NCBI GenBank assembly: GCA_002633005.1
Contig: NMRA01000028.1
Coordinates: forward strand, 604,535-668,534
From: Phoronis australis
Lineage: Eukaryota > Animalia > Phoronida
DNA: 64,000 bases
Reading direction: 5' to 3'
In this document: in pieces, positions 31,136 to 64,000 of the stretch
Position numbering within the stretch: the first letter of the stretch is position 1
How the letters are laid out: every line of letters begins with the position of its first letter
Made by a program: the position numbers and the translations under genes
The notes under the pieces: generated by a model
The model's database searches: none
What the model was told of the DNA's origin: nothing
Seen by the model: the letters and a program-made list of their open reading frames with translations, nothing else

Positions 31136-34100
31136 ATGCCTTCCGAAGACAAGGTTATCCCTGTCCGAGTGGCTCTACGGTGTCGCCCTCTAGTGACCAA
31201 GGAGGTGGCTGAAGGATGTCAGACATGTTTAAATTTCACTTCAGGTTTGTTCAGTTTTGTCTGTTTACTAGTACACATTTATAAAATCCATTCATTGATA
31301 CTTTACAATTGTATTTTTCGTAATTGATACGCATTTTTCTGATGTTCAAACCTTTGCTTTGTCTTTTACTGACAATCTCTTTTGTCGAAATAATCTCATA
31401 TCAAGCAGGTACATGCAATGTATTTTTACACTTGACCATATTTTGTCTCGTTTTCATCAGTGTTATGGTTTGCCATGGTTTTTTACAAAATTGCTATGGT
31501 AGAGCAAAAAATGGTTGATATATGACCTTGCTTTCTTTCTGCCTCCATCAAAATAGTCTTGACATTGTCACTGGCAGCACCTACTCACTATGAGCACTGA
31601 CCCCCCTACACAGTTGAACATTTCGTTGTGGTAAAAGAGTGATTTCATGGGAAGTGACGGACACAAAATGGAAACTCGCTAGCTATTTTTAGGACTCAGA
31701 ATTGAAGTAAGAATGTTGTTTGCGGTGCGACTTGATTTGAGCTGACTGTGAGTCGACACGCGAGTAGGTTATACAAAATTATTTTTATTGTCAAGTTGCA
31801 AAAGCATTTGCCAAGCTGGTGAATGGACTTAGCTCTACCATCGGTAGCACTGCTCAGAATTCACTGCTTGCGAGTGGCTAGCATGAGCCTAGTTCTATTC
31901 TGCATTTTTGTTTTGTGATAATTTATTTTCTTCCAAAAGAATCTGTAAGTAACGAAGACTTGATAGTACTAGGCATTAGTTTTGCCAGTCTTTCAAGATA
32001 TTAGCTGATTTTCTGTCCATTATTATTACAGGGGAACCACAGGTGTCGGTGAGCAACAGTAAGTCATTCACATATGACTTTGCATACTCCCCAAAAGTTG
32101 ACCAAGAAGAGGTTTACAACCAAGCTGTGTCACCGTTAGTCAAGGAGATTTTTAAAGGTTTGTGCAAATGCCTTATTTAAAGTATACTTTATTGGATGTG
32201 TCTAAACTCACAAATCTGATGTTTTTATTTATGGTAAAAATTTTGGGACAGTCTGTAGAATTTGAGACAACAAAAGTTGAATTTTTTCATTCTGAAGTTT
32301 GGCACAAGGGCAGTTTTGGCATTCCTATTTCTTAAATTTCACACAATGTGCTTTCACTCTTCGAAGTGGGTAATTTTGCCACTTCTTCTATGATATTTTA
32401 ATTTTAGGATGGTCTTTATCGCCTGTTTCTAGATTTTGGGACAAATTCAGACCTTAAGCAAAATAATTAATTTTCACTCTCCCAAATTGGAGAATTTTTC
32501 CATATTATATATATTATAAATTGTATTTTTGGCAGCAAATTTTCTTTTAAGCAAGCGCCATTGAACACAACGTGGCTTCTGCAGATTCTAACTTCCTGGG
32601 AATCCTCTCGTAAGCTCGAAAAGATACACACTCTTGTACACGTGCACACTTGATGTCATGTGTTCATTTCTGATTTCAACAGTACTGTGTAGTTGATGTC
32701 ATGTGTTCATTTCAGGTTACAACGCCACTGTGTTGGCCTACGGACAAACCGGAAGTGGGAAAACGTTCACGATGAGCGGCGTGATACCTCGCGTGATCAC
32801 AGAGCTGTACAGTACGATGGTACAGAGGGCTGAGTACAGCTTCACTGTCAAGGCATCCTATCTAGAGGTAACAAGCCAGTGCCTGTAGCCGTACTGGATT
32901 ACGCTGCCAAGACCATATTAAAACCTGCTAATCCTACAGGCTGTTGCTCATTACTAATTCAATCTGCTTTTATTCTGATGCACCTCTCCACTAAAGCCCT
33001 AACAATAAAATAGTTGAAAATATCTCTCCCTGCTGCCTCTGTGTTTAGATAGTCGCATGAAGTTTCAATTGTTTGACAAGCATTTTATCATTACTGTTTG
33101 GACTGCAACTTTGGCAGCTTCCGTTAACACTTGGTATCTTCGGACTCGGCTCAGTCTAAACCTGTGCAGTTCCTTGTAACTCTCAGAATGTATTTGATAT
33201 ATTGGGGCAATTCCATTTGTGACGGACCTAGAATCAGGTAATGTTTTGATCAAATGCAAGTAGTTTAAATCCGTAGCAACTCCTTTACTTGATTTTATAG
33301 CTGTTTTTGTAACATTTAATTGCTTTAATTTGTCTTTTGTAAGTTTGGAAAGCACAAATAAGACCTAAAGTTATTTTTATTGATTGAAAATTGTAATTTC
33401 ATGGGTAAGTGACGGACGCAAGATCTGCCTCGCGATTTCTAACTCAACAAATGTTCTCTGGGATCTAAAATTTTGGTTGACAGTAGTTTAAAGAGAATCT
33501 GAAATTATTTTAATTTTGAGTGAAAACTTTTGACGTAACTAAACTTTTTAGCACTTTTTTGTGATGGACATACAGCACTTTGATATCCAGGAGTTGGCCT
33601 TTGACTCCAAGAGGTCGACGATGTGCTACGGGTCAAGTGATATTTTATGAAGTATAGGCTTCATGCGATTGCACAAATTTTATAATATAGTGAAATACCT
33701 ATACTTAGCTTATTTATGACAATAATTAGCAACGCACTTAAATATCGGAGGTTAGTTCTAGGGTCAAGTGACCTCCGAAAATGGATCTATTCAGGAAAAA
33801 ATTGAAAGTTATTGTGAAAGTTATTGGAAATTCAAATATGGGTCTTGAGAATCTGGGTTTTCAGATGATACCAGAAATGTTAATGTAGACACAATTTTGA
33901 TTTGTTGTCTCTAGGTTGACCTTTTCACATAATTGCCCCTAGTTGATAGCTTGTGTGCTACACACTGGTTAGGGATGTGTTGTGATACATGATGTTGCTA
34001 AATTTCATTTGCAGATTTATAATGAAGAGTTGCAAGATTTGTTGGCTGGTCGCAAGGAAGGTGACTCACTCGCCATCCGCGAAGACAACGGAGGCATAAA

Positions 34101-37100: not shown

Positions 37101-40100
37101 CCGTATTTCTGTGCTTTCAGATTCCCTGGGTGGTAACAGTCACACTGTGATGATTGCCTGTGTCAGCCCGGCTGACTCCAATATGGAGGAGACTATCAAC
37201 ACACTACGCTATGCTGATCGGGCACGTAAGATCAAGAATAAGCCAATCGTGAACAGAGACCCTCAGGCGGCCGAGATACAGCGACTGAAGCAGCTGGTTG
37301 GACAATTGATGGCCAATGGCAGTACAGCTATTGGGTATGTACAGAACATGCTGGTTAGTGTGGTGTTCGGCACACAAACATTGTAGGCTTTGGTTTGGAT
37401 ATGCTCAACCCAGTTTTAGGTGTTGAATGATTCTTTCATCAAACTAGCATTTCTTTTAAAAAGGATCATCAATCTGGCTTTTGTCAAAGCTTATGAAAAT
37501 TTTCAGCGGTGTTGGTGACTCCATTAAAATCAGGCATGTCAAAAAATGACAGCTGATGCTTTTGCTTGAGGAGTTCTGTGGGAATTTGTCGTAAAGAAGC
37601 TTCAGGCATCCAAAACTGCAAAACAATTACTGTTGAAGATCTTCAGCATTGCACTTGTCCCAAAACAATAAAACAATGACAACTGAACATATACAACATT
37701 GTATTGTTACACTCTGCAGTGCTGGAGTGAGTACGGAGCGACTTGCTGAGCTGGAGGAGGAGAACCGTAAGTTAAGCCAAGAGCTACAGATGTCTGTGGA
37801 CCAGAATGCAGGTCTTTGTGAGAAAGTGATAGTTCTGGAGATGGCCAGAGAGGCGCTCAAGTCAAGACTCGAGGAGATGGCTCAACAGGCAGGGTAGGCA
37901 GTGTAGTTAATGTTTGGAGGTTGGTGACAAACTGTCTCCATGTAGAAGTAGACGTCTGTCAACTTTACTGTTGATTTTTGATCTAGTTTCAGTTTTGACT
38001 ATGTTTATCCACTCGAGTTTGCAAAGTCATTAAATGGGGAACCTCCTGTGGTATTATTGTTGAATCATCTTGGTCTGTTCACACCTACTACTCTACACTA
38101 GGAATTACTCAAATCATTTAGTATCATAATCATGATTGTCAATTGTTTATCATTTTTCCCGTTCATCTACAGAACTGCTCATGAGGTAATGGTTGTAAAC
38201 ACATCCATAAAGTTTGTTTCTGAATTGTATAATATTTCTAGTTTCTGATCTCTTCAGTCAATCAACTGACAACATCAACATTGATGAGTTACCTGACTTG
38301 CAGAAAACACTGAATGAACTAGAGGTATGTCATGTGACTGTTTTAACCTTTGAACTGGAGGTCACATGTCATGTGACTGTATGTTGTAACATTGGAAGGG
38401 ATTTTGAGCATTGTGTACTTTTTTACCCATGTCTACACTGGAATCATCCTTAAACCTTCTTAGTAATGTTGTGGATCACAGTAAGGAATTCACATTATAA
38501 AAAGAAGAGGTTTTCATCTTAAGCTCAGTGGCGCTCAGAAAGTGCGTCAAACGCATAAATTTCCAAATACTGTCAATTGTGCACCCCAAAAGATAAATAA
38601 ACCGATAAAAGTTATGTAAGACTAATAAGCATATTGCTAGAGAGTGATTATAGGTGTCGCAATAAGTGTACATAAAAACACTTGCTCAAAACCTGTTTAA
38701 TTCTTTTACACATTTTGATTTTTCAGAAAGAAATATCTCTCATAGAAGAAGACAAGGTAAAATTTTGTGTATGCAACTTCTGTAAACATCTTCAGAGAAA
38801 AATAGATTTTATGCGTGTTTGTGTGTGTCCTTATTGACTGATGTAAAAGTTGACTTGGTCAAATGTTGACTCGTGAAATTTTTTGGAGTCAAAAATGGAT
38901 GAAAACATGTCTTTATAGAAAAAATGCATTTACACATTCCGTTTTATACCACTTGATTCCCTGGGGACTGAAAGATGAAAAAAATGTGTTTTCAAAAATC
39001 ATACTTTGCTGCTCTCTGTCAGTGTCACGTTACTTGTTATTGACTGTGCTATATTCCTTGTTGGATTGTGTCAATGGTTTCTACAGGAGAACCCCATGAC
39101 TTCTGCCCCAGGGTCCCCATCTTCGGACGCCCTGTCGGCCAAGTATGCCCTGCGTCAGGCTCAGATGGGCCGGGAACTGCAGGAGTTGAATAAGATGTTG
39201 AGTAAGAAGCAGGAGTTGGCAGAACACATGAAGAATAACGATAAGAGGATGGATGTGATGAAAGTACAGTATGAGGTGGGTAGTGTCTACAGTATGAGGT
39301 GGGTAGTGTCTACAGTATGAGGTGGGTAGTATATACATTATGAGGCAGGTAGTGTATACAGTATGAGGCGGGTAGTGTATACAGTGTGAGGTGGGTAGTG
39401 TATACAGTATGAGGTGGGTAGTGTATACAGTATGAGGTGGGTAGTGTATACAGTATGAGGTGGGTAGTGTATACAGTNTTTGACTCTTGTTTTTCTGGTA
39501 GTAGCTTGTAGTGGTGATTGTTTAAGTGCATTTATCCTTGAATTTGACACCAATTTAGCTGTCATTATAGGTGTGGAGAGCAACTTAAAATGATATTTAG
39601 GTATGAAAGTTGGCTGTGTTGAATTAGTGAAGAGCTGAATGTGTGAGTGACAGAGCAGGTTGACAACTGATTTGGACTTTACACCTGACCTCTTACAGAT
39701 AGATTATGTTTTGTTTCTACCACATTAAGTGGATAATTATTAAAGGGATTCTAGTCATTAATCAAAGAATCTTGTAACTTGTTGCCTAACCATTCGGTTG
39801 TGGATAATTTTTAACACGTTAATGGTCACTTCTGTGCGTTCTTGCTTCATATATCTGTCATGACTGACTTGTATGCATAAACTCTGAACATCCAGTTGCA
39901 CAGATCCATTTGATGGTGTGTATAGCTAGAGTACGAATTTTTTATTTTTAGACTGACCTGTATTTCTGTGCTTTCAGATTCTCTGGGTGGTAACAGTCAC
40001 ACTGTGATGATTGCCTGTGTCAGCCCGGCTGACTCCAATATGGAGGAGACTATCAACACACTACGCTATGCTGATCGGGCACGTAAGATCAAGAATAAGC

Positions 40101-43100
40101 CAATCGTGAACAGAGACCCTCAGGCGGCTGAGATACAGCGACTGAAGCAGCTGGTTGGACAATTGATGGCCAATGGCAGTACAGCTATTGGGTATGTACA
40201 GAACATGCTGGTTAGTGTGGTGTTCGGCGCACAAACATTGTAGGCTTTGGTTTGGAGATGCTCGACACAATTTTAGGTGTTGAACGATTCTTTCATCAAA
40301 CTAGCATTTCTTTTAAAAAGGATCATCAGTCTGGCTTTTGTCAAAACTTATGAAAAATTTCAGCTGTGTTGGTGATTCCATTAAAATCAGGCATGTCAAA
40401 AAATGACAGCTGATGCTTTTGCTTGAGGAGTTCAGTGGGAATTTGTCGTATAGAAGCTTCAGGCATCCAAAACTTTGCAAAACAATTACTGTTGAAGATC
40501 TTCAGCATTGCACTTGTCCCAAAACAATAAAACAATGACAACTGAACATATACAACATTGTATTGTTACACTCTGCAGTGCTGGAGTGAGTACGGAGCGG
40601 CTTGCTGAGCTGGAGGAAGAGAACCGTAAGTTAAGCCAAGAGCTACAGATGTCTGTGGATCAGAATGCAGGTCTTTGTGAGAAAGTGATAGTTCTGGAGA
40701 TGGCTAGAGAGGCACTCAAGTCAAGACTCGAGGAGATGGCTCAACAGGCAGGGTAGGCAGTGTAGTTAATGTTTGGAGGTTGGTGACAAACTGTCTCCAT
40801 GTAGAAGTAGACGTCTGTCAACATCAGTGTTGATTTTTGCTCTAGTTCCAGTTTTGACTTTGTTTATCCACTCGAGTTTGCAAAGTCACTAAATGGGGAA
40901 TCTCCTGTGGTATTATTGATGAATCATCTTGGTCCGTTCACACCAACTACTCTACACTAGGAATTGCTCAGATCATTTAGTATCATAATAATGATTGTCA
41001 ATTGTTTATCATTTTTCCCGTTCATCTACATAACTGCTCATGATGTAATGGTTGTAAACACACCCATAAAAGAAAAGTTTGTTTCTGAATTGTATAATAT
41101 TTCTACTTTCTCATCTCTTCAGTCAATCAACTGACAACGTCAACATTGATGAGTTACCTGACTTGCAGAAAACACTGAATGAACTAGAGGTATGTCATGT
41201 GACTGTTGTAACCTTTGAACTGGAGGTCACATGTCATGTGACTGTATGTTGTAACATTGGAAGTGATTTTGAACAGTGTGTACTTTTTACCCATGTCTAC
41301 ACTGGAATCATCCTTAAACCTTTGTTAGTAACATTGTGGATCACGGTAAAGAATTCACATTATAAAAAAGAAGAAAAGAGGTTTTCATCTTAAGCTCAGT
41401 AGCGCTCAGAAAGTGCGTCCAACGCATAAATTTCCAAATACTGTCAATTGTGCACCCCAAAAGATAAATAAACTTTTAAGTTATGTAAAACTAATTAGCA
41501 TATTGCTAGAGAGTGATTACAGGTGTCGCAATAAGTGTACATAAAAACACTTGCTCAAAACCTGTTTAATTCTTTTACACATTTTGATTTTTCAGAAAGA
41601 AATATCTCTCATAGAAGAAGACAAGGTAAAATTTTGTGTATGCAACTTCCGTAAACATCTTCAGAGAAAAATAGGTTTTATGCGTGTTTGTGTGTGTCCT
41701 TGTTGACTGATGTAAAAGTTGACTTGGTCAAATGTAGATGCGTGGGATTTTTTCTAGTCAAAAATGGATAAAAACATGTCTTTATAGAAAAAATGTATTT
41801 ACACATTCCGTTTTCTACCACTTGATCTCCTGGGGACTGAAAGACGAAAAAAATGTGTTTTCAAATATCATACTTTACTGCTCTCTGTCGGTGTCACGTT
41901 ACTTGTTATTGACTGTGCTATATTCCTGGTTGGATTGTGTCAATGGTTTCTACAGGAGAACCCCATGACTTCTGCCCCAGGGTCCCCATCTTCGGACGCC
42001 CTGTCGGCCAAGTATGCCCTGCGTCAGGCTCAGATGGGCCGGGAACTGCAGGAGTTGAACAAGATGTTGAGTAAGAAGCAGGAGTTGGCAGAACACATGA
42101 AGAATAACGACAGGAGGATGGATGTTATGAAAGTACAGTATGAGGTGGGTAGTGTATACAATGTGAGGTGGGTAATGTCTACAGTGTGAGGTGGGTAGTG
42201 TATACAGTATGAGGTGGGTAGTGTATACAGCGTGAGACGGNATGAGGTGGGTAGTGTATGCAGTATGAGGCGGGTAGTGTATACAGTATGAGGTGGGTAG
42301 TGTATACAGTATGAGGTTGGGTAGTGTTCGGATTTGAATGGTAGACTTCAACTCTGTCTACAAGGTTGGACCCTGTAAGCATACCAACTTCACCCAGTCT
42401 GGTGGCTTTTTATCTACAAGATGGCAATCCACTGATGACATGAGGTCATGATACAATACCAAAACATAAGAGTACTGTAGTTCAATGTGATTACAGACAA
42501 CAATGAAAGAGCTAGAACAAGAAGTTGACCATCTTCAGAAGGAGAAAGAAGAGCTACAAAGTCAACTACAGCAAGTGAAGACTAACAGTAATGCTAACAA
42601 GTAGGTGTCTCCGTGATAGTGCAAAACCAAGTGTTGTTAAGTGTATGTAGGGAGTTGAAAGTGATCCAATATATTTACATGGTGTCTCAACATTGTGGAC
42701 CTGGTTACAAAGATATGGGATTTTTATTGGGTTCATATTTTGAAGCACCCGATATTTAGTTTTTGTACCATTTTGATAAAAGTTGAGACAGGTGGTACTG
42801 GTATGTTGGTCTCACAACTATGCGTGTGTATCACTCTGAAAGTAACTGGAGACGCAGAATGAACAAAAGCTGCCTCGAGGTTTCAAGATGATAACTTGGT
42901 TTGACGCACTCCCCTTGTTGTCTTCCAAGACAAGCGGAAGATAATTGGACCTTGTGTTGATGGTGTAAAGGAGATCTCATCTATCTGCATTATCTTGGAA
43001 AGTTAGTTTTAAATTTAATTTGTTTTGCAGACTAAGTGAACAAAGACGTCAACGTTTGAAGGAGTTGGAGAGTAAGATGGCTGAACTGCGCAAGAAGATG

Positions 43101-46100
43101 TTGGAACAGTCCAAGATTGTCAAGTTGAAGGAACAGACTGACAAACAAGTGACCAAACTCAATCAGGAAATCACGGTATAACTTAATTTGTTGACCGTTT
43201 ATTGTTTAAAGTAAATACTTGTCTAAGTAGTGTGCTGTTCCATCCTTTAGAACAATTATTCAATTTACTATTTGCAAGATAGTTTATTTTTAATACTACT
43301 GACCTTACATTTTTGAGTTCCCGTGACAGGGCTCATATTGTTCCTTTTTTAATAGAATTTCCTCTTTTTTGATTTCAATTTCTTCTTGTTTGATTTCCTG
43401 ACCAGTTTCCTCTTTTTTGTCTTTTTATCATTATTTTGACTTTATTCATGTTAAAACATTTAGGGCTGTTCCAGCAAAATCTGTGTGGGAGGGGGGAAGG
43501 CAACTGAAATAAAAATTTATGGGTGGTTGCGTTTGATTTAAATTCAAAATGGCTGGTGGTCGCACTTCAAAAAAATAAAAATTTACAGGTCGTTGTTTCA
43601 TTGGGCCATAAATGTTTGATGGTGGATAATTTTAGTAAATTTTATAAACCGGACAGAATCAAAAACTGAAACAAAAATGCAACTTGCAAAGAGCTCCGAC
43701 TTATTCACTCCCTCCGATCTCCTCATCGGCATGCCCATAACACCATTTAACCACAGGTGCTCGAATTTCTCGATGGCTAATAACCATATATAAGAAACAT
43801 ATGTTTTCTTAGTAATGAATGACGTTAGTGGTGATGGAGGAACAGATAAACTCAAGCGCCTGTGCAGTCAACCACAAGAATAAAAAAAAATTACGGGTGG
43901 TTGCATTTCAAATTACGGGTGGTAGGCTGAAGAAATAAATGAAAAATATGGGTGGTGGGTGCGAAAAAAGGTGCCTTCCCCCCTCCCATACAGATTTTAC
44001 TGGAACAGCCCTTATTGCAGTTACTTTTTACAACACAAAATTATTTATACATAAGCCAGCCCTATTTATTTGTAATACAACTTATTACCATTGAAATTTT
44101 TCCTCTTTTTTGTCTATTGTTTATTACCGGCCTTTTTGAAACCAAATGGTAATTTTTGTTGTTGGAGCAAACTGCAGTGCATGACCACTAATAATGACAT
44201 TGTCTACATGTTGTCATGCAGTTCATGAACACTAATGACATTGTCTATATGTTGTCATTCAGGATGTGAACACTAATAATTTCACTGTCTACGTGTTGTC
44301 ATGCAGGGCATGAAGCAACAGAGAGTTAAGCTGATGAAACAGATCAAGGAAGACGCTGACTCATTCAGGAAGTGGAAACAAGAGAAAGACAAGGAGATTA
44401 TGCAACTTAAGTCTAAGGTATGTTGTGTTAGTAAATGCAACAACACTTATGCAGTGTATCTATGAACACTAGTTGTCATTTGGAATAACAACATGTTTGT
44501 ATGAAAAACAACATGAAATTTATGACAATAATTTCCCTTTAGTTTTCTGAAGCTGTGTTGTTCGTATGTGCTGATGTTCAGCCACCAGTGCCCTAAAAGC
44601 TTTCTGTCAAACACCCTAAATGATAAGTCGACTGTACATATTCTCTTGTGATGCAAAACTAGCTTTCCTTCAGGATGAGCCCAACATCATCTCAAATATC
44701 TTTTGCGTTCACAATGAGCTTTGTGTGGTCTGACTCCTCACTCTGCATTCCATCACAGGACCGTAAACGACAGTGTGAGATCGTCAAGATGACAACCATG
44801 CACAACCGCCAACAGGCGGTGCTCAAGAGAAAGGCTGAGGAGGCTGCAGCTGCCAACAAACGCCTTAAGGAGGCGCTAGCGAGACAGAACAATATTGAAA
44901 AGGACAAGGATATCACAGGGATTGGAGCCAAGGTCAAGGTGAGTTGGCTGGTTAACGAATATTCATGTTTTTATTGTAACACAATAATCTGGAACTGTAA
45001 TAGTGACTTTGACATACTTTTTGGTATACGGACATTTGTAAGAAACGAACTGTGGTACACTTACAAGGATGTGTGTATGTTAGAAAAAAAAGGTATAAGA
45101 GAACACTCCTGAGATAAGAATTGTCTGGGAGGGTCACTCACTTGTAAAATAACTCCAATCTGTAATGTTGTCTGTAGCTCCTAAAGTCATCATATTGTTT
45201 TCAGAACTTCCTGACTCAAGAAGTTGAAGTTCAAGTGAGTATCAAGACTGCTCAACATCACCTGGACTCACAGATCAAGGACCGTAAACAGCTGTCTGAG
45301 GAGCTGTCACAGTTAAAGAAGCAGGTGACTGAGACGCCACCTACCAAGAAGATAGCGTGGGGTGAGCAGCGGACACCCACTAAAACAGCGGAGGATTGTG
45401 ACATGTTGAGGAGACGGGTGGAGAGTCTGGAACAAGATATAGAGCTGAGGTTAGGCAATATGTTATTGCAGGTGTGTTTTGTCAAAGTTGTGGTGAAAAT
45501 TGGCAACAAAGGCATTGGTGGAAGTCACTCACTAATTGTCGCTCCAATTCTTTTTTGAGCCAGCAGAGACGGAAAACTGTTAAGACTGTAAGTCAAAGCA
45601 AATCAAACAGGTTTTATAACTATCGTGTGAAGTTCCACCCTCAAGGGATTTTGTCACTCTTTATATAATTTCTAGTCTATTTGCACTGTTGGTAGCTAAA
45701 AGTTTTATAGCACATGCCTTTTGCCTCCTTCTTTTCCGTGAAACAACTTTTATGTTTTAAAAACAGGAATTTACTAGAAATGACAAAGCGTGCTCACTGT
45801 CTGTGTTTTGCATTGTTATTCCCTCAGGAACGCCCAGATTACAGATCTCCAGCAGAAGCTGATTGACGCAGACCAGGGTGAAAAAGTCAAGTCTCGGTGG
45901 GAGAGCATTCACACTATGGTGGAGGCTAAGTGTGCCCTCAAGTGGCTTTTTAATTCGGTAGGTACGGTCTGTAGCTCAGCTCAACCCACCAACTTTACGG
46001 AATGCTTCAACTTGTTGCTTTTGATAATTTTTTTCTAATCATTGGATGTATAATGTGTAGAGTTATGGGCAACTCTTGTGATGATTGGTTTACTGGTGAC

Positions 46101-51961: not shown

Positions 51962-54900
51962 TCAATGTTTAGACTTCTTGCTACTACTGCCTCCTCCTCC
52001 CATCTCCTTCCGCTTGTGCATGATATTCTGGATCTGCTGCCATTCACGATCAAGAGCCGCCTTCTCGTCCTTAGGTCCTGTGCGTCGGGTTTTACGACCG
52101 TCTGACATCTTGACACCGTATTGGAAAGCAGCTCTGGAAAACAATGAAATATTTGTGCAAATAGTACGGACCACCAGTTGTCTTTCACAGCAGTATGTTT
52201 AGATTTATGTGAATAGATCTACTAAGTGACGGACACCTTGTTGCAACTGCAGTTACACAAAAAGCTTAAGAATGACCACATGTAAGCAATGTGTGTTCTC
52301 ATGACAATGCTCATTCTTTCCACTACAACGTAGTACACAAATAAACTTCTGTTTTCTGTGAAAGACAAAATACAAGAACACAATCGCCACCAATTTTAAC
52401 AGTTGTCACACTATCCAAAGCTGATGGTCAAAACAATCGTAACAATGAGAGTGATTTCCCCTGTTAACAAGCAGTCACAAAAGTTTGCAGTGCGATCTGT
52501 TTCCGAAGTCAGCCTCTATTGTTTCGATAAAAATTGAGAGTGATAATTACTTCTGGCCAATATTTAGACGCGTTGAAGCAGCACTAAACTCATGCTTTCT
52601 GTCAACAATAGTTTGGTTTAGTCCTCTTACCATTATGTTAAACCGATCTTGTCTTGCTCCTTAATGAATTTAGAAGAGATCTCTGAACTCAGGAACAACT
52701 AAATGTGTTATTGATTCAGACCAAGTTAATCAAATTTCAGATCGCGTCATGACCTAAAATTTTATGAACTTGTTCTGAAGAAGTAATCATCTGACAGTTC
52801 TTTGGAACCTTGAAATCATTTCTATTGACTAAGAAATTTGAGATCGCTTGTGTTACGGTCAGTGGACTAAATCAAGGCTTTTTTGACAGAAACCATCGGT
52901 TTAATGGCACAGTAACTTTAAATTGTTCAATAAAGTCGAAGCCTACACCATCTACACCATCTAGAAATAATTCATAGAAACCATCTCAGTGTCTAGCATT
53001 GATTCGTGTATATTCTCAGAGACTTAGAATTTTTGCTCAAGTGAGACTATTTATTTTTCAGACATAGCATGTATGTCTTTCAAACGTCTCAAGTCACTTG
53101 CCATGACACAGACCCCAGACAGTAACACTTAGACACCTGCATACACAATAACACTTAGACACCTGCATACACAATAACACATACTTGGGTAAAGCCTCCT
53201 TGTTGGACATATAATCACTGTACTCTTCAGCAGTTTCAAAGTCCCACCGGCCCACAGGTCCCTTCTTGTTACCCAGGTCCATCTTGGTATAATCAGCCTC
53301 CTCGTCACTGTCATCTATAGCATCAGCTGATTCCATCATACTGAAATAGAAGTCATCTTGTTAAATCATAGACAATAGCAGTGGCTGCAACTCATCACAG
53401 ACAAGATGGCTCATGTACAGGGACACACCAATGCCTCATTTTATCACATGTCAAAGTCTGGTCGAAGCTAAGATGGTCATAGGCATGTTCTTATGAAAGT
53501 GGTGTTGCACTTTTAGTAAGAGCACAACACTGCTAACAGTCAACATCCTCCTAATTCAAGTTAAGTGCACATTTTCACAAGCCACATTTAAACAAAAATT
53601 CCAGATACGATCATCCCAACCAGCGCTCAACACTAAACTTAACACAAAGTCGCATTTGGTGACCTGCCAAAAATCCCAAGTCACCAAATGAAATATGAAA
53701 ATCCCAGATTGGCCAAATGGAATCTATGAAATCAGAGCTTGTTGATCCAGCGCAGAAATCGTTGACTAAAAAAAGGAAAAAGGTCATAGTTTCTAGAGTC
53801 TTACGCGTACCTCTCCAATTTCTTCCCGTAAATGTACAATCATCCTGTAACGATAGCATACACTAGTGGCGCGCATTTCATCGATCTTACCAGATTTTTG
53901 CATAACAATTCCGACTTCAGTCTGTTTACTGCCTGTTGTAATTTAATAGCATGTTTGATGTGTGCTGCTGTGGTAGCAAATGCACTGATTTCACAAAATA
54001 AACCGAACAATTGTGAATCAAAGGTAATAAATCAAGGAAAACTGTTTAGAAGCTAACACCAACTTAGAAACGAATTTAGTTGAAATCATTGTTTGCTACT
54101 CGCAGTGGCAGGTCGCTTAACACAATCTGAGGTCGCATCGTCTATCTGCAGGTCACCAAATCGAGCACTGCCAACTAAGATCAAGAATACGGCCTTTGAT
54201 AAAACCGGTCCCTGGTGTGTAAAATGTGTATAAACTGTACAACACTAACATGGCATTATCTCACCATATCAAGTAGCCATTATTGAACATTGCAAACGAC
54301 ATCAAGTAAAGTAAGACTCGTCTTTTTATTATGTACAATTCAGTCCTGAACAACAAATTCAACTAATGAACAGGTATGTTTTGGAATGTCAAAGAACTTC
54401 CTTGGATTACTTCGATTAATAATTATCCCAGTTTTGTACACACCATGAGTGCAACAGAGGAAAGCAAAATTCTACAAATAACTGAGCAGTACATCTTGCA
54501 AATCCGAGAGTCCTCTGAACCAGCAATGACAATCTTACCCAGGGTAACATTCAGCATAACTGTCGATTTCTGTTTTGCGCTTCAGTTTCTTCATTTGTTC
54601 ATCGTCTTTCTTCTTGGGTACAGCGTCTTCCTCAGGTTGGGTCCAGCCCTGAAGTAATGACGATCAATACTACAAACAAGTCTGTTAATGTCACAAATAT
54701 GCCACTATTTATGAAGACGTGCAGTGTAGCTACTGAGCCATTTGAATTAAAACTTAGTGGTCATCGTTCATAAACAATTTCTGCTCAATTCCAGAAGTCT
54801 TCAAGTTAAATTACATCAACCCTGTAATGCTTGAAATAAGAAGAATTAGCCAATAAAAGGTATTTGAGCATCAGTACACCATAAACCATCGAAGTGAAGG

Positions 54901-57900
54901 GAGCTCCCCCTAATGTAATCGATGTTAAACAAAATTAAACTTCAACAGACTTATGTCTTCCAAAGTTCCTACAACAGACAGCTGCAGTGGGTTGACATGT
55001 AACCACTGCACAGGCTGACACAAGTCTTTTTAAGCTTTAAAAGCTTTCCTTCGGTATGAGACATAAAATATTCAAAGGTGTGCAAAAGTACCTTGGAGAA
55101 CTTTTCATTGATGGATCTGACCAGGTCCTTGGCAGACTCCTGGTGTTCAGGCTTGACATCATCCTGAGGAGAGAGGTGATCATTATCTCAACATGCCCGA
55201 CATAACACACGGCACACTCATTGAAAAATAACAAGATTGCTTTAATGTAAAACATGTCTCAGATGTGCATTTGGGTGCACGGGCCTATATCAGAAATAAC
55301 GCTTTTAAGAAAACTTTTAACGCAAGCGTATTGGTTCATGCGTCTGTTTCACTTGTGGTTTTAGGAGTCTGCCTCTTGTAATGTGCGTCTAAACTTATTT
55401 GGATATCTTTCATTCAATCTCAGTACTTTTCATTTAAAGTTAGCTTTAAATTGATATTAAATAAACATCTACCATTACGTAATGCATAAGACAAGTTCAA
55501 CTCACAATATTTCAAAAACTAGTTTCTTGGATTTTGTTTATTTAGAGTTTCTAACTATGGCCTACGAGCTTCATTCTTAACATTTTTTGCACATGAGCCT
55601 ATGAATATGTGGATATATGACATGAACACTCAACTGAAATTTGCTCACTGTTAGTCAAAACCTAATAGCTAATGCTTAATGACAACACAAAATACAAGTG
55701 TAAGACACTGAAGAATGAGAAACAATTGTCAGAGACACACACCTCATCTGCTGGTTTTTCAAAGTATGACCTCTTCTCTTTACGACCCCGGTCACCGTCC
55801 TTATCCCTGTCACGTCTGTCTCGGCCACGGTCACGGTCACGGTCCCTATCCCTAAACACAAATCAATCATCAGTAGCACACGTGACATGCACAATACTGA
55901 ATGCACAACACAGGATGCCATTTGAAAAAATCACTGCTGTAAACCTAGCAAACAAACAGTTTTTGTTGTATGTTTTTAAGTATTTTTGGCCAATTGAATA
56001 TGATTTAAACAGATCTTTTGAAGCCATAGTAATAATATGAACATATTTACAATGTCACCATAACTCTCTGTGACACCTGAACAGTAAATACTGACCATCA
56101 CACCAACTGACTACATGATGACAAAAATTAAAAAATAGAGGAAAAGTTGCAAAACACTAACTAGTGATGAATTAAAATGAAAATATGACCAACATAATAA
56201 AAACAAGAACAACGCAGAGTGCTGGAATGTGCCCACAATGGCATCGTAAACAGTGCGCTTCTAGGGGTGTTTATTTGTATCCTAAAAATGGTCATTAAAC
56301 CCATCCAAAAATGGGAAACTGTCATCAACCCATAATATTATTTGAAAAATTTTAGGAAATCCATCAAAGAACTCCAAAGATACAAAGGCAAATGTAGAAA
56401 AAAACAAACTGACATTAAGAAACACAGCAGTATTCAAATCCATCCATCTGCTGTCAAGTTAATAAGAATACAATTGCAAAATTTCAAAAACATCTTGTAA
56501 AGGGTATGGAGATACAGCCATAGATGTGCAAAAATGTCCCTAGGGGGCACCACAGTAGTTGAACCTGTTTGAAAATCCATGTCAGTATGTTCTAATCAGT
56601 AGGAACACAACGAGAATCTGCAAAGTTTGGCAGATACAGAAGCAAAACAAAATAACAGACTAAAATAGGTATACAATGGCCATTGGTAGGTGAAGAATCC
56701 GTCGCAAAAAGGAAAGATACTGTCATCTTCGTAACAGAAAGTTGTTTGCCCAATATCATGAAAAAGCACGAAAGAAACTTTTGAAATTACAGAGGTAAAA
56801 CGTAAACAATAAATTGCCACTAGGGAGCACAGCTGTAGTTGGATTGGTCTGATACTGGCCATCTCCGAAGGAAAACATCAGCTAAATTTCAGAAAGATCT
56901 TGCAAAGCATAAAGGAGATACAACCATGGATGCAAAAAAATTCCACTAGGGGGCAGAGTAGATGAGCATGTCTGAAAATCAACGTCAACCTCGGTCTTCA
57001 TATCAGGAACACAAATCGAAATTTTAATAATGATCCTTCAAATGGTTTGGTGGATGGAAAGGGTAATGTCAAAAACGTAATAAACAGTTTTTAAAATGGC
57101 CACTGAGTAGTGCAGAAAACATCAAATTCGCCCAAAAATAAGGGGGCATCGTCATCTGCTTAATAGAAACCTATATGCAAAGTTTCATGATAATAAAAGC
57201 AGCCGCTATATGTTGAATCTATTCAAAAACATTAACCTGTGTACTCTTTAATTGAAGCATATATTTTATTAAATTTCATAAAAATATGCCAAGGAGTTTC
57301 AAAGATAACAGAGGAAAACGAAAATAAAATTGCTACCAGGGGAACAGCGGCACTCAGATCCATCCAATGTCGCCTTTTTCAGTTAACTTCATATAAATAC
57401 ACTTGCTAACTTTAAAAGATCCTGCAGAGGGTTTGGGAGATACAGCCATAGATATAAAACAACTGCCTCTAGCAGACGCCACAGTAGGCCGGGCTGTCCG
57501 AAAATCGTCATCACCCGTCCTCTTCAAAGTAGAGACTCGCCAATTTTCAAAATCATCCTTAGAGTGGTTTGGTGGATTGAGGGGCGGATGCCAATAACAA
57601 ACTACAAAACAGTAAAAGCCACAAGATGGTGCAAAATACGTTGAATCCATCCAAAAGCGGAAATATGTTGCTGTTTTTTTTAATAAAAGGCTATTCACCA
57701 AATTTCATAAAAGTCCGTCAAAGAATTTCAGAGAAACATGAAAATGGAAAAAAAAAGAATTGCCACTAGGGGGCACAGCCATCGTCAGATCCGTCTGAAA
57801 GTCGTCGTAAGCTTGATATAATTACACTGGCTAAATTTAATAAAGATCCTGTAGAGGGTTTAGGAGATACAGCCTTGGGTACAAAAAGCCACTAGGAGGC

Positions 57901-60900
57901 GCCACAGTAGTCTAAGTCATCGGGAAATAATCATCTTTTGAGTGCTTTGGTTGACAGAGTGGCGGATGCAGTGAAAATGGCCACTAGGTGCCTCAAAATA
58001 CCTCAAATCCATTTGAGGACAGCGTCATCTCGCTAATAGATGCCTATCTGCCAAATTTCATGGCAATCCGAAGATACAGAGATAAACGTAAAAACTAAAA
58101 TTGACACTAGGAGGCACACCGGTAGTTGGATCCGTCCGAAAGTCATCGTCGTCAACTTCATATAAATATGCTTGCAAAAGATCCTGCAGAAGATTTAGGA
58201 GGCGCCGCACAGACGGCAGACAGACGGGGATGACGGCATAATGTGCCCACATATAAATATGTGGACACATAAAAATGACCAACTTCAAACAATAATAAAG
58301 TGAGGTGAGAAACAAACCACAGAACTAAATAATAACTCCACTTTCTATGTAGTGTAACAGTTAAAAGTTAGAGAGGCTTGTCGAATTAAGAAACCTTTAG
58401 ATTGTTGTCAGTCCTTTTTGGCATTTGTTACAGTGATGCCTGCCACATGTGTCTTCATTTTAACTGTTTTTATTGCAATACTTTTGAGGGCAGCCTCAAT
58501 GTAGCATGGCAGCCCTTCTCATGGCAGCGGTCCAGACACTCAAAGTAATATTTGTGTAACACCAATAGTCATGTAGCAGGACCAAACTTTACTGACTTGT
58601 CCCTATTGCTACCATGGTTCCTATCTCCCTCACTCTCCCTAAACGGTGACTTTACATTACTGACCTGTCCCTATTGCTACCTCGGTCCCTGTCCCGCTCT
58701 CTCTCCCTATCTCGACGGTCACGGCCACGATCCCTATCCTTGTCCTTTGACGTCTTATTATAACTGGGTGCATATACACCAGTCTCAGCATAGATACTAC
58801 AATGTAAGTCAAACAAACATCAATTCCAGCAAGCAACTCCATACAGAGAAGATGCTCAGCACTGCCACTAGATAGAGAACATTGCAAAACATTTTTGAAT
58901 AATCAATGGGTAATACAAACATTAAAATGTAAATCATGAATCAATTGAACACGACAGTAGACCATTAAAATTAATACACTTCAATTTACACATCCTACTG
59001 GCTGGGAGACACTGGGTTGCAAGTCAACGTGAATAGAATGTTTCATGTTGTTTTCATTAGTCATCGAATTCAACTGAAGGTGGCACCACAGCTTCTTTTC
59101 TGACCAACTGCCTCATGACATTATTAATTACACTAAAGGCATCAGCAGCATTCAAAGCAGCCCAGATTAGACTTACGCTTCATCATGGCCTGGCATTTTT
59201 TCCTTCACAGTATCTTCATCTTTAACTTTCACACCTGACAACATAGGTTGAACTCTTATTATTAGATACGAGGGATACTATGTGGCCAGTCTTGTTATAA
59301 TATAATAGTCAGCCATGCAAACCTGTCGTGTTATAAATATAATAGTGAGTAATGCATACCTTTGTCTTGTTATAATATAACAATGAGTAATGCATACCTT
59401 TTTCTTGTTATAATATAACAATGAGTAATGCATACCTTTGTCTCATTATAATATAACTGTGAGTAATGCATATCTTTGCCTTGTTATAAATATAACAGTG
59501 AGTAATGCATACCTTTGTCTTGTTATAACATAACAATGAGTAATGCATACCTTTGTCTTGTTATAAATATAACAGTGAGTAATGCATACATTTGTCTTGT
59601 TATAATATAACAGTCAATCATGCATACCTTTGTTTTGTTATAATTTAGACAAGCTCAATACACTAGAACCTCATGGATTAAACATAAAAACTTCTTAAAT
59701 TACATCATTAAATTTTTTCCGCAACCATGTATCACATTCATTACGCCACATCTTAAATGTCAATTGCCATATAGTGTTTGATTTTACTTTATTTATGTTT
59801 CTGTTGACGAAGTATGTTATATCCAAAAATTCCAGTTGATCCATTTATTTGTTTTATTTACCTATATATATTCTACATTTCGTGAAATAGTATCCTTGCG
59901 AGGATCTGGATCACCTTATTTAGTTTCAGATTTACTTTCTACGTTATTTGTCTTGTTATAATATAACAGTGAATAATGCATACCTTTGCCTTGATAGAAT
60001 ACAACAGTGAGTAACACATATCTTTGCCTTATTATAATATAACAGTGAGTAACGCATACCTTTGTCTTGTTATAATATAACAGTCAGCCATGCATACCTT
60101 TGTCCTTCTTTTTCTTCCTGTCCCGTCGCCCTTGCCGAAGATAGGACAGAATCTGGGTTAACTTGTTGATAACAATGTCATTGGATGTTAATGTTGTCGT
60201 TGACTGGAAGAAAGCAATTTTGTCATTCCAGTGTTGGTTGAATACTTTGAGATTAATGTATTGTAAACATCAACCATGAAATCCATTAAGATCTATGGTA
60301 AACCTTAGTATTCTCATCATAATTCACTGAAGAGGCAACATTTTGTAGCATATATTAACTGACGTAGCATGAAGTATGACAGCTAGAACTTCAGGGGAAT
60401 CACAGATTGAAAATGAAGTCAAAACAAGCACTAACAGACTGAGTATAGACAAATCACACAGCCAAAATACTTAAAGAACAAGTAAATGGCCAAAGATGCC
60501 AGCCAGAAAATGACAGCATTCACACGTAAATCTGTGCTGATAATTTAAACTAATGCTTGCAGCTTCAAGAACTTTGATTTGTTTACCTCTAGACTGGGAC
60601 AGTCCGCCTTACTCCTGATTAGTGTCGTAGGTACATCTGTCTCCACGTACTCATCTTCCAGGTCAAACACATACGCCATTCGACCCGGCAGGAACAGTTC
60701 ATTCCTCTCAAATGTCCTCGGTTTGAATAGAGTGCGAAATATGTTTCGCCCTGAAATCAAGAATAATTGAAATTCATGTTCAGTGCTAGAGGAGGTTAGA
60801 ATGTAGAGCAATTATTGGGAAAAAAGATTTGACATATGATATGTTACTTCAGACGGACGAAATGAGGGAAATGAATAATTAAGCAGAATCTGCAAAAGGA

Positions 60901-63583
60901 ATCTTCAGAATAACCGGAAGTGTCTTATCACCGCTCAAGTCCATATTATAGACAGGAATATAGAGTTTTATATAATTATGCCGTGATCATGTATTTTACA
61001 CAGTTTGGTACATTTCGGGACACATTTTCTTTAACAAAGCATAGTTTTACACATTTTATTTTTTTTTTAATTAATTTTCTGCAACATACTATGTATGTCT
61101 ACACACTGCCAAACCAATAACAAATGGAATACAGACTAGCAACAGCAGGTTAACAGTCATTAAATGTTAGTGGTTATTACCACACTCCCTGGTACTATAC
61201 CACCTCCTCCATCTACAAGTAGTTCTCAAATCACCCTTAATCAGGGCTTGGAATGACCCATGACATAAAAAGCGGAAATTTTTACGGCCCTAAACATGCG
61301 CGCACCCAGCCTTGAAAATGGGGGGGGACTCGAATTTTTGTCGATGTGTACCATAACATCAGAAGGACTAAAAAAAGGTACCACCTCCAGAAGCGTGCGT
61401 TTGCGTCTTTTTAACTCGTCCGTCCACTCCCACCTCCACACATTTTTGGCTGCAGAGTCGTAGTATTTGACACCGCGATTTACAATCTCACGAGACCCCA
61501 TTGAAGAAAACCACGCTATCCAAGGTGCCCAGTAACGATGACAATTTACGTTCCTCCGAAACATAAAGAGCAACTTCCGCTTTTTGAGGTGAAAGTAGTC
61601 GGCAACGCTGCGGTAATAAAGAAATTCGCCGCATATTTTATATCAAATCCGATTTTTTTTTACGCGGAATTATAATAAAATACGCGGACAGAACATTTAA
61701 CAAAAGCGGAAATCTTGAGTTTCCGTGGAAAATTCCAAGCCCTGCTTAATCTTAACAGACATTAGAAGAATGAATCAACATCTCACCAAGTTTGGTTGAG
61801 AAGTGCATGCCTTCCTCAGGGTTCTTCTCTTCTCTACAATAACATCACATGAATCAGCATTAATACATCTGGCGGTGTTTTACATTACAATCAAATGCCC
61901 TGACCAATCATCGCCACAGATGATCACTATTAAATTAGATTCTAAACATCCTATGTCCAGGCAGCACGTCTCTACTCTGGCAGTTTAAATCAAAAAGCAC
62001 AAGTGGACTGATATGGTTATGAAGTACAACTACGTTGTGACATATCATGCGCATGTGATATTTCATTTTATTTTACAAGACAGTCTGTTTTATGAGCCCG
62101 GAACGAAAACGGTGACGCCAACAGACATAGGAACTACACTTAAGTATCCGAGAAAATAGGCATAGGTGTCAATTACTGATACAAATTGCACAAATTATTT
62201 TCAGGCAGTGAAGTTGTTCTAATGATTCCATAACTAAATCAATATTGAATAATTGTCAAGCAGCAGGGCGAGACCACATTTCTGTCTTAGGTCTCAAGTC
62301 AATTTTCAAAAAACAGACTCCAGAACTTCGCTCTACAGTCAATGACTTGAAAAAAAAACATCACCAGTGATATCTCGTCCCAAACATACAGGCAATTCAC
62401 TTTACTAAAGACAGTTTACGGGCAGTTACGTAAGATATGTAGTGGAGCCCACTCACTTAGTGTTAGAGACTGCTTCCTCCAACAAACTGTCTTCTTCCAG
62501 TTCCTTAGTGCTGATCTCAGCTCTCACCTGTAAAACATTGTTGACTTCTTTAAATAACATTCATATCCACCACTCACAGTTTGGCTCCCAATAACAAAGA
62601 AGCACAACAGTTTGAAAGCATACATCATCACTCATTGGAACTGCTAATCCCATGAACAATCATTTTTGATAATGTCCTAGAGACTTGGAGGAAGACTTGT
62701 AATGAGGCCAGTAAGCCATTGTAAACAGTTGGAATTTTGCAACATGAACTTAACATGAACTACACTGCTTTCAATTTAAACTCGCATTATTGACACATCC
62801 ACAATATCATGATCTAGGCTCATGTATACAATGACATCACTTCTGTTAATTCAATTCAATACTTGACATGCCTGTATGTGGTACAAAGTGTGCTAACTCA
62901 GCCACCAATACCATCACAGTCTCCAACAGGGACATCAATCCTGTTGGGACTTTGCAACATGAATCTAACATGAGGTGCGCTGCATTCAAATTAAACATCC
63001 TGAATAAAGTACTCTAGGCTTCTATACATACCAATATGTCATCATCACTCATGTTTATTAATTTCAAGACTTGACAAATCCACATACTGTACGTAACGTG
63101 TTATCAAAGCTACCAATACCCTCATCCTCTCCTACACAGACAGTGGCAGATCTGTTTTTAGGAAGCTGAAGGTTTTAGGATTCGCACAAATCCAAGGCAC
63201 ATAGCACTGAGTGGGGGGAGGTCGGGAGGGGGTTTCCTCCTTCCCGTGTAAGATTTTTTTTTGTTTTTGTAGCTGTTTTCATTTTCCTAGTGACGTTTTT
63301 TTAATTTTTATTTTTGATCCTGTCCCTGGGTGGAGGGATTAAACCCCTTAAACTCCCACCCCAAATAAATCCGCCTCTGACGGGACATCACCCCTGTTTA
63401 TTCATTCCAAGATTTGACACATCCATAGATTGTACAAAGTTTACTAGTACAGCCATCAGTACCCTCACCTTCTCCAACAGGGCATAGTCCAGCCCCTTCA
63501 CCAAGTGGGTGTGTTCCATGTCTCCACCCAAGTATTTGGACTCTTGAATCAGCTGTTTACGCCGCTCCGCATAGTTCTCACCA
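51962..63583 (-). CDS. IK: Protein Red / IK (spliceosome B-complex, SMU1 partner); 5' end lies outside the window
   Basis: Minus-strand exons 63583-63469 (ESKYLGGDMEHTHLVKGLDYALLEK), 62527-62457 (VRAEI), 61833-61787, 60750-60587 (ERNELFLPGRMAYVFDL..DVPTTLIRSKADCP), 60203-60098 (NDIVINKLTQILSYLRQG), 59234-59177, 58796-58665 and 55851-55743 (RD/RE repeats), 55163-55092, 54648-54539 (SYAECYPG), 53340-53185 (DDSDEEADYTKMDLGNKKGPVGRWDF), 52133-51962 (AAFQYGVKMSDGRKTRR). All phases are consistent. Confidence 0.97.
52575..52920. mobile_element. Decayed palindromic MITE
   Basis: ttctgtcaacaatagtttggtttagtcc and ggactaaatcaaggctttttgacagaa are imperfect inverted arms. Confidence 0.45.
53621..54170. 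mobile_element. hAT-like non-autonomous element with a 5-bp TSD
   Basis: CCAAC-CAGCGCTCAA...TCGAGCACTG-CCAAC; subterminal inverted tttggtgacctgc / gcaggtcaccaaa. Confidence 0.65.
56203..58274 (-). mobile_element. Second HINE-like element of the same family, inverted, in an IK intron
   Basis: acaagaacaacgcagagtgctggaatgtgcccac (56203) and aatgtgcccacatataaatatgtggacacataaaa (~58240-58274) are the reverse-complement 3' and 5' ends; same internal units. Confidence 0.75.
59290..60105 (-). repeat. 38-39-bp minisatellite spanning an IK splice donor, interrupted at ~59646-59945
   Basis: Minus-strand unit GACAAAG|GTATGCATTACTCACTGTTATATTATAACAA, ~13 copies; the real donor is at 60098/97. Confidence 0.92.
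61242..61744 (-). mobile_element. hAT-like element of the same family, 6-bp TSD CTTAAT
   Basis: CTTAAT-CAGGGCTTGGAAT...ATTCCAAGCCCTG-CTTAAT. Confidence 0.8.
62725..63485 (-). repeat. Diverged ~215-bp tandem repeat that includes an IK exon end and donor
   Basis: cagccatcagtaccctcac|cttctccaacaggg (real junction 63468/69) recurs as cagccaccaataccatcacagtctccaacaggg (~62899) and aagctaccaataccctcatcctctcctacacag (~63107). Confidence 0.7.
63141..63379. mobile_element. Small CAG-terminated MITE-like insertion
   Basis: CAGTGGCAGAT...ATCCGCCTCTG; interrupts the ~215-bp tandem repeat; TSD not evident. Confidence 0.4.
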
Positions 63584-64000
63584 CTGAAAACAAAAAACAA
63601 CTTGCAATGTCCCACAATGCAGTGCAGCTAATGCATCTGTCAAAACTGTAAAACCTTTAGAAATGAATGACAAATTCATAAGCCAGTTACCATTCAATTT
63701 CAAGTTTATGACCACTCAAAAATCTGTAGAGAAAAGTTTGTGAGAAATGCAAACTACCAGAGTGCGTCAAGCAGGGATTGTAGCACCATGTCACAGCTTG
63801 GCGTGCTTCACATTGCACATACATCAATGCATGTCTAAAAATGTATCATTAAACTACACTCTGGCTTTAAGATGAATCACTACTTTTGCTTCTAAACCGC
63901 CTTATCACTATTGTTACTTGAGCCTGGTCTGCTGGACTGTATTTACCTAATTCCCATATGCTTAGAGATGTCTCGCTTCCTTCAATGACATCTCCAAGCA

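What the first reader, a model, noticed from the sequence alone, without database searches (positions are those of the whole stretch)
32650..63485. Systematic copying of exon-intron junctions into tandem arrays (splice-site-anchored duplications)
Seen: many intronic tandem repeats here have a unit that straddles a functional splice site, contains a piece of exon, and expands only into the intron. Cases: KIF4 acceptor 32715 (43 bp x2), donor 38324 (36 bp x2), donor 39275 (23 bp x~9), acceptor 44306 (~43 bp x3+); IK donors 63469 (~215 bp x~3), 60098 (38 bp x~13), 58665 (~68 bp x2). Further repeats abut junctions at 8798 and 53185 or lie close to one at 18075. The units are unrelated in sequence and range from near-perfect to decayed, so this is a recurring process and not one TE family. 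Inference: either a mutational mechanism is targeted to splice junctions (e.g. spliceosome- or R-loop-coupled repair), or junction-spanning duplications survive because one intact site always remains. It would supply decoy splice sites and raw material for intron sliding or gain. I know no named system for this, but could not check the literature.
Basis: partly seen in the sequence, partly recalled or inferred. Interest (0 to 1): 0.85.

Follow-up and report, generated by a model that had tools for sequence, protein, structure and literature searches.

The report
Splice-junction "mirage" repeats, KIF4 and IK
In two neighbouring genes of an invertebrate, seven exon edges with their splice signals are copied head-to-tail into the next intron; this repeat type is already known from lancelets, chickens and a human gene, the RNA examined at three of the sites uses only the copy next to the exon, and the repeats are likely harmless duplication debris.

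Summary
All seven arrays span a splice site of an open-frame KIF4 or IK gene model (7 of 94 sites; 0 of 28 in the neighbouring ARHGEF gene). They are 2-5 times more frequent than random placement predicts (7 of 17 arrays, P 0.002-0.05), in a window chosen for this pattern. It is not new. The anatomy is that of amphioxus 'mirage' minisatellites, chicken 'exon stuttering' and the human F7 intron-7 VNTR. This scan has already noted it on other DNA (47 findings, at least 13 genomes). The host is a lophotrochozoan, not Branchiostoma. RNA reads at three IK donors use only the exon-proximal copy (60, 38 and 31 reads), although 8 of 12 spare copies at 60098 keep an identical donor 9-mer. 26 of 27 spare sites would give a premature stop. 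Spare GT/AG decay no faster than the rest, and no intron-gain signature was found. Growth 'only into the intron' follows automatically from using the first site. Most likely these are ordinary local duplications that are tolerated and retained beside exons. A junction-targeted mechanism is not excluded and could not be tested, as no genome is held.

The parts
32650..32733 (+). KIF4 exon 3 acceptor (32715|32716) duplicated, 43 bp x2; the spare copy has lost its AG
38315..38397 (+). KIF4 exon 10 donor (38324) duplicated, 36 bp x2.3; the spare donor keeps GT but is weakened (score 3.2 against 11.3); the only spare site that would stay in frame without a stop
39265..39477 (+). KIF4 exon 12 donor (39275) array, 23 bp x9.3, cut off by an N; 6 of 8 spare copies keep the donor 9-mer
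39479..42327 (+). Second copy of KIF4 exons 8-12 with its own versions of the 36-bp (41180-41265) and 23-bp (42134-42327) arrays; likely an uncollapsed second haplotype
44173..44314 (+). KIF4 exon 15 acceptor (44306|44307) array, 41-44 bp x3.3; both aligned spare copies keep AG
53119..53183 (-). 26 bp x2.4 array that starts just inside the intron after IK donor 53185; abuts, holds no exon
58586..58709 (-). IK donor 58665 duplicated, 68 bp x2 (45 nt of the Arg-Asp-repeat exon); spare copy not seen in RNA
59286..60104 (-). IK donor 60098 array, 38 bp, real site plus 12 spare copies, split by a high-copy insert at about 59650-59946; 60 junction reads use the real site
62728..63479 (-). IK donor 63469, decayed array with three junction copies (spacing 343 and 208 nt) and a repeat element at about 63140-63375; 38 junction reads use the real site
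8631..8786 (+). 49-51 bp x3 intronic array ending 12 nt before ARHGEF acceptor 8798|8799; holds no exon
31137..50437 (+). KIF4-like kinesin gene model, 23 exons, 1154 aa open frame (name from recalled likeness; not searched)
51970..63583 (-). IK/RED gene, 12 exons inside the window; five junctions confirmed by RNA joints in 58270-63900

Best explanation
These are 'mirage' minisatellites: seven unrelated local tandem duplications that each span an exon-intron junction, which likely arise by ordinary slippage or repair-type duplication, are likely tolerated because the copy next to the exon is the one spliced, and likely pile up at junctions because sequence beside an exon is kept longer than intron interiors. 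Shown: the anatomy, the local origin, use of the exon-proximal site at three IK donors, and premature stops for 26 of 27 spare sites. Inferred: (1) birth by untargeted duplication of 20-200 bp; (2) later copy-number turnover as in any minisatellite; (3) rare mis-spliced RNA removed by nonsense-mediated decay; (4) excess at junctions because the founding copy is held fixed by selection on exon and splice signal, cannot be deleted, and keeps reseeding the array, while interior arrays decay at both copies and are overwritten by transposons and deletions.
For: All 7 arrays span junctions, with unrelated units. RNA: 60098>59234 27+24+9 reads; 63469>62527 21+13+4 reads; 58665 19+12 reads running on into the next exon. 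None of the 11 listed joints starts at a spare copy, and RNA depth is 0 in the bins 58458-58645, 59398-59585 and 62594-63157. The same first-site rule was shown by mutagenesis for the human F7 VNTR (PMC1557585 abstract) and reported by RT-PCR for amphioxus mirages (PMC3087553 passage). Spare GT/AG positions differ at 6 of 54 (11%), exon parts at 32 of 283 (11%), intron parts at 127 of 729 (17%), so there is no selective killing of decoys. The two KIF4 copies differ in the order of 23-bp variants, as turnover predicts. About a quarter of the gene bodies is other repeat by my rough mask (12,240 of 49,273 nt), and masking it raises the expected count to 1.7-3.1.
Against: Enrichment remains after masking (7 of 14 against 1.7-3.1; P 0.0005-0.017), and the retention step has no direct test. 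Junction arrays are not clearly older than the others (crude identities, Mann-Whitney P 0.06). Exon overhangs are short (7-18 nt in six of seven; P 0.05 against uniform), which selection or a breakpoint bias could both give. The RNA runs come from other samples than the DNA and may carry different arrays. Joints with fewer than 3 reads are not listed, so use below a few percent, or RNA lost to decay, is invisible. No read evidence was seen for the four KIF4 arrays.
Confidence: 0.65

Rival explanations
1. Duplications are born preferentially at exon edges, for example through nicks or breaks linked to splicing complexes, R-loops or nucleosome borders, with one breakpoint about 10 nt inside the exon.
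For: 7 of 14 non-transposon arrays span a site against 1.3-2.9 expected, and 9 of 14 lie within 15 nt. Overhangs are 7-18 nt in six of seven whatever the unit length. Unchecked notes of this scan report above-chance placement in other genomes.
Against: The window was picked for this pattern. ARHGEF has 0 of 28 sites spanned. Differential retention predicts the same excess. The overhang bias is borderline (P 0.05). No call here tests a molecular link, and one literature search with 'R-loop' gave no paper that proposes it in its listing.
Confidence: 0.17
2. There is no real enrichment: junction-spanning arrays are just the share of all intronic tandem repeats that happens to overlap a splice site, seen in a window selected for many of them.
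For: Under the most lenient null (whole array length, all 17 arrays) 3.6 are expected against 7 seen, P 0.049. Half of the non-transposon arrays (7 of 14) do not span a site. The chicken preprint treats exon stuttering as a subset of general intronic stuttering (passages).
Against: All 11 null variants for spanning give P below 0.05 (9, 2). The founding unit, not the grown array, is the fairer measure (P 0.0016 or lower).
Confidence: 0.12
3. The spare sites are functional: they tune expression through unproductive splicing or seed new introns and exon extensions.
For: 21 of 27 spare copies keep GT/AG; 8 of 12 at 60098 and 6 of 8 at 39275 keep the full 9-mer. PMC3087553 proposes intron gain from mirages as a hypothetical model.
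Against: No spare-site joint in three RNA runs. The signals decay at the background rate. No donor-acceptor likeness marks an intron gained by duplication (47 introns, mean score 4.9, against 4.9 for 2,256 unrelated pairs).
Confidence: 0.04
4. The arrays are assembly artefacts.
For: Single Ns lie at or in the 23-bp arrays (39478, 42241), and the KIF4 segment is likely duplicated by the assembler.
Against: Copies differ from each other by 5-25%. Contigs built separately from raw reads cross the 68-bp pair (58270-59373) and the first four 38-bp copies (59905-61296) with 0 differences. These runs may be the assembly's own sample.
Confidence: 0.02

Closest known systems
Amphioxus 'mirage' minisatellites (Adh3, globins BflGb6/BflGb9, troponin C, PGBD5). 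Seen: passages of PMC3087553 and PMC3902484. The original paper (Canestro 2002, PMC117041) is not held.
   Same: [quoted passage not shown]
   Different: The host here is a lophotrochozoan, not a lancelet. One unit is about 210 bp, and two arrays are interrupted by repeat elements. Somatic instability was not tested.
Chicken 'exon stuttering' (bioRxiv 10.1101/2025.09.16.676548; passages)
   Same: Local expansions that copy the edge of an exon with its splice site into the neighbouring intron: 236 introns, source within 1 base of the exon border in over 90% of cases, 1-44 copies; mechanism left open.
   Different: There concentrated on GC-rich dot chromosomes (190 of 236), with spans up to 23 kb. 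Here the DNA is 32-43% GC and arrays are under 1 kb.
Human F7 intron 7 37-bp VNTR (PMC1557585; abstract only)
   Same: The first unit spans the donor; downstream identical pseudo-sites are functional but silent; the most upstream site is chosen. This matches IK 60098 (38 bp).
   Different: A single locus tested by mutagenesis in mammalian cells; it makes no claim on enrichment.
Intron gain by tandem genomic duplication / internal tandem repeats at exon-intron boundaries (PMC2812944 passages; PMC4974935 search listing only)
   Same: Tandem duplication of sequence holding splice signals.
   Different: There the duplication creates a new intron or alters the exon. Here existing junctions are copied, exons are unchanged and no gain signature was found.

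Membership tests
Mirage minisatellites | Head-to-tail repeat whose unit spans an exon-intron boundary | tested here: met
   7 arrays, exon overhang 7-45 nt; junctions confirmed by RNA for the 3 IK arrays, by open frame only for the 4 KIF4 arrays
Mirage minisatellites | Occurs at both donors and acceptors, with locus-specific unrelated units | tested here: met
   5 donors, 2 acceptors; units 23-210 bp, no match between arrays in the self-comparison
Mirage minisatellites | Many but not all copies keep GT/AG | tested here: met
   21 of 27 spare copies
Mirage minisatellites | Normal splicing is not disturbed | tested here: met
   At 3 of 7 sites only: 60, 38 and 31 reads at the real donor, no spare-site joint listed; the other 4 were not seen
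Mirage minisatellites | Length or variant polymorphism between haplotypes | tested here: inconclusive
   The two KIF4 copies differ in 23-bp variant order, but both hold an N and their allelic status is inferred
Mirage minisatellites | Somatic instability (reported for Adh3) | not testable with these tools
   Needs single-molecule or long-read data
Dispersed transposon or satellite family | Same unit at many loci, high read depth | tested here: not met
   DNA depth 13 over the 38-bp copies against 8-10 in flanks, and 16,000 in the insert; units unrelated. Tested for the IK arrays only
Intron gain by tandem genomic duplication | Donor and acceptor junctions of one intron are copies of each other | tested here: not met
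   Best own-intron score 14, equal to the 99th percentile of 2,256 unrelated pairs

The most novel reading that the evidence does not exclude
Across invertebrate genomes, short tandem duplications are born preferentially at exon edges, with one breakpoint about 10 nt inside the exon, because splicing or exon chromatin focuses DNA breaks there. Mirages would then be the visible record of a splice-site-targeted mutational process and a steady source of spare splice sites.
Probability: 0.15. Interest if true: 0.7.

Novelty: new member of a known kind. Interest (0 to 1): 0.2.

Why it matters
As it stands it adds one more lophotrochozoan to a repeat class described in lancelets, chicken and single human genes, with RNA support that identical spare donors stay silent outside mammals. 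The open point is why such arrays are 2-5 times over-represented at junctions. The papers read leave the mechanism open. If a birth bias rather than retention were shown, splicing would be shaping mutation at exon edges, which bears on intron gain and sliding. In practice these arrays can break assemblies and mislead gene prediction: the likely false KIF4 duplication here ends at one.

Tried and rejected
Genome-wide test: impossible, no whole genome is held. First array catalogue inflated array ends and was replaced by maximal-scoring segments. Of 23 clusters, one outside the gene models and two in the second KIF4 copy were dropped, and clusters of one element were merged (3 to 1, 2 to 1), leaving 17; three of these were classed as transposon-derived by eye. 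Read laying on 44000-63900 was swamped by transposon reads: no splice joint was among the 15 shown of 601, so acceptor 44306 stayed untested. No RNA holder was listed in the index; the RNA runs used were added by species label. Selection against spare GT/AG: not found. Age difference between junction and other arrays: inconclusive, P 0.06, crude identities. Non-spanning arrays nearer to exons than random: median 117 against 170 nt for unmasked intron, n=7, not tested further. Intron-gain signature: none. The maximum-likelihood tree did not finish; FastTree was used and held no brachiopod or phoronid row, so the phylum is open. Canestro 2002 and Zhuo 2007 are not held. Seven paper searches showed no listing with a genome-wide enrichment test against intron interiors; only listings were seen for most hits, subscription papers are missing, and no supplement was read. 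No other note on mirages in this genome and no look-alike stretch in the scan.

Full report
Setting. No whole genome is held. The window holds three spliced genes, modelled by hand: an ARHGEF4/9-like gene (+, 15 exons, open frame of 865 aa), a KIF4-like gene (+, 23 exons, 1154 aa) (both names rest on recalled likeness) and IK/RED (-, 12 exons, open after correcting one acceptor to 58796). One IK exon finds IK/RED proteins. The IK model is 55% identical to Branchiostoma IK and about 59-77% to mollusc, annelid, nemertean and unnamed proteins in its two conserved blocks. In a FastTree of 46 rows it falls in the lophotrochozoan clade (support 100) beside Tubulanus and Owenia. No brachiopod or phoronid row was in the set, so the phylum is open.

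Observation. TRF reports 4 of the 7 cited arrays. I scanned all offsets of 10-460 nt with a cut-off that 0 of 8 block-wise dinucleotide shuffles reached and found 23 clusters. All seven cited arrays span their splice site, with 18, 10, 11, 8, 45, 7 and 11 nt of exon. The arrays at 53185 and 8798 stop 1 and 12 nt short and hold no exon; the one near 18075 is 59 nt away. The 38-bp array is split by a high-copy insert, and the 63469 array has a repeat element in its first unit. KIF4 exons 8-12 occur twice, 95-97% alike and joined at an N at the end of the 23-bp array. The copies differ at 12 of 674 exon bases and 2 residues, and splicing both would stop at residue 518. An uncollapsed haplotype is the likely cause; I did not test it with reads, and counted those arrays once.

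Are they real? Contigs assembled from raw reads cross the 68-bp pair (58270-59373) and the first four 38-bp copies (59905-61296) with 0 differences (similar). These runs may be the sample the window came from, so they exclude assembler error but are not a second animal. Depth over the 38-bp copies is 13 against 8-10 in flanks, so the unit is local and not a dispersed family. The KIF4 arrays were not seen in reads.

More than chance? After removing duplicates, 17 arrays lie in 49,273 nt of gene body with 94 splice sites. 7 span a site (KIF4 4 of 44 sites, IK 3 of 22, ARHGEF 0 of 28) and 9 lie within 15 nt. Random placement expects 2.1 (founding unit), 3.2 (two units) or 3.6 (whole array): P 0.0016, 0.022, 0.049. 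For the 14 non-transposon arrays it expects 1.3-2.9 (P 0.00005-0.012). With 12,240 nt of other repeats masked it expects 1.7-3.1 (P 0.0005-0.017). The excess is thus 2-5 fold. The window was chosen for this pattern, so these P values are too small.

Are the spare sites used? Three RNA runs from other samples (about a fifth of each read) were laid on 58270-63900. The joint from 60098 to 59234 has 27+24+9 reads, and that from 63469 to 62527 has 21+13+4. At 58665, 19+12 reads run on into the next exon. None of the 11 listed joints begins at a spare copy, and RNA depth is 0 in the bins that hold only spare copies. Yet 8 of 12 spare copies at 60098 carry the same donor 9-mer as the real site. Limits: joints under 3 reads are not listed, the animals may carry other alleles, and 26 of 27 spare sites would cause a premature stop, so their RNA would likely be degraded. 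The exception, 38360, adds 36 nt in frame and has a weak donor (3.2 against 11.3; one case only). Across 27 copies GT/AG positions differ at 6 of 54, exon parts at 32 of 283 and intron parts at 127 of 729: no sign that decoys are selectively destroyed. No intron shows donor-acceptor likeness above unrelated pairs, so there is no trace of intron gain by duplication.

Mechanism. A unit [exon end][intron start] repeated n times reads exon, site, then copies. If the first site is used, all copies are intron and the protein is unchanged. One-sided growth therefore needs no directed process. That explains tolerance. The excess over intron interiors needs more. The simplest account (inferred) is retention: the founding copy is fixed by selection and cannot be deleted, while interior duplications decay at both copies and are overwritten. 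A birth bias is the rival. Short overhangs (P 0.05) and a trend to lower identity in junction arrays (P 0.06) do not separate the two.

Known? Yes. PMC3087553 (passages) describes tandem repeats spanning exon-intron boundaries in amphioxus globin and Adh3 genes, 'termed mirages': units of 10-160 bp, at both boundaries, without disturbing splicing, unstable in length, mechanism unclear, proposed as a route to intron gain. PMC3902484 (passage) adds troponin C and PGBD5. A 2025 preprint (passages) screens chicken for 'exon stuttering' and finds 236 introns; it does not use the word mirage. PMC1557585 (abstract) shows for the human F7 37-bp VNTR that downstream identical donors are functional but silent. 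This scan holds 47 findings with these words in at least 13 genomes, of which 8 were shown, among them brachiopod, mussel, sea urchin and a probable annelid (unchecked AI notes). I had found the name and the two amphioxus papers before reading them. They gave the leads to the chicken and F7 papers.

Verdict. Real, correctly located and modestly enriched, but a further member of a known repeat class. What is new here is RNA evidence at three sites and decay counts that argue against function. The cause of the enrichment stays open. Interest 0.2.

Noticed in passing
window 16872-16889 and 39270-39287 / 42139-42156: The ARHGEF exon 5 donor and the KIF4 exon 12 donor, in unrelated genes, share 17 identical bases across the junction (18 with the second KIF4 copy and most array copies). 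The longest such match among 1,081 donor pairs; P about 0.001 in column shuffles, post hoc. Unexplained. KIF4 donors 35205 and 35770 share 13.
   Followed up: partly
window 35783-42327: KIF4 exons 8-12 are present twice, joined at an N at the end of the 23-bp array. The first copy has an ~840-bp insert (36043-36884) that the second lacks. Likely two haplotypes left uncollapsed.
   Followed up: partly
window 14215-15982 and 56202-58277: Two inverted members of one repeat family built from decayed ~430-bp units, in introns of ARHGEF and IK; high DNA depth and transcribed.
   Followed up: no
window 3952-6335, 33205-33938, 36043-36884, 43458-44046, 46706-47218, 49463-49970, 61242-61745, 59650-59946, 63140-63375: Many repeated elements in introns; several have inverted ends (MITE-like), and those laid with reads have DNA depth hundreds to thousands of times the single-copy level.
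   Followed up: no
window 11520-11558 and 17163-17201: An exact 39-bp match between two places 5.6 kb apart, each beside a single N; possibly a scaffolding join.
   Followed up: no
window 50437-51970: KIF4 and IK end tail to tail; stranded RNA depth shows their 3' regions meeting near 51300 with little overlap.
   Followed up: no
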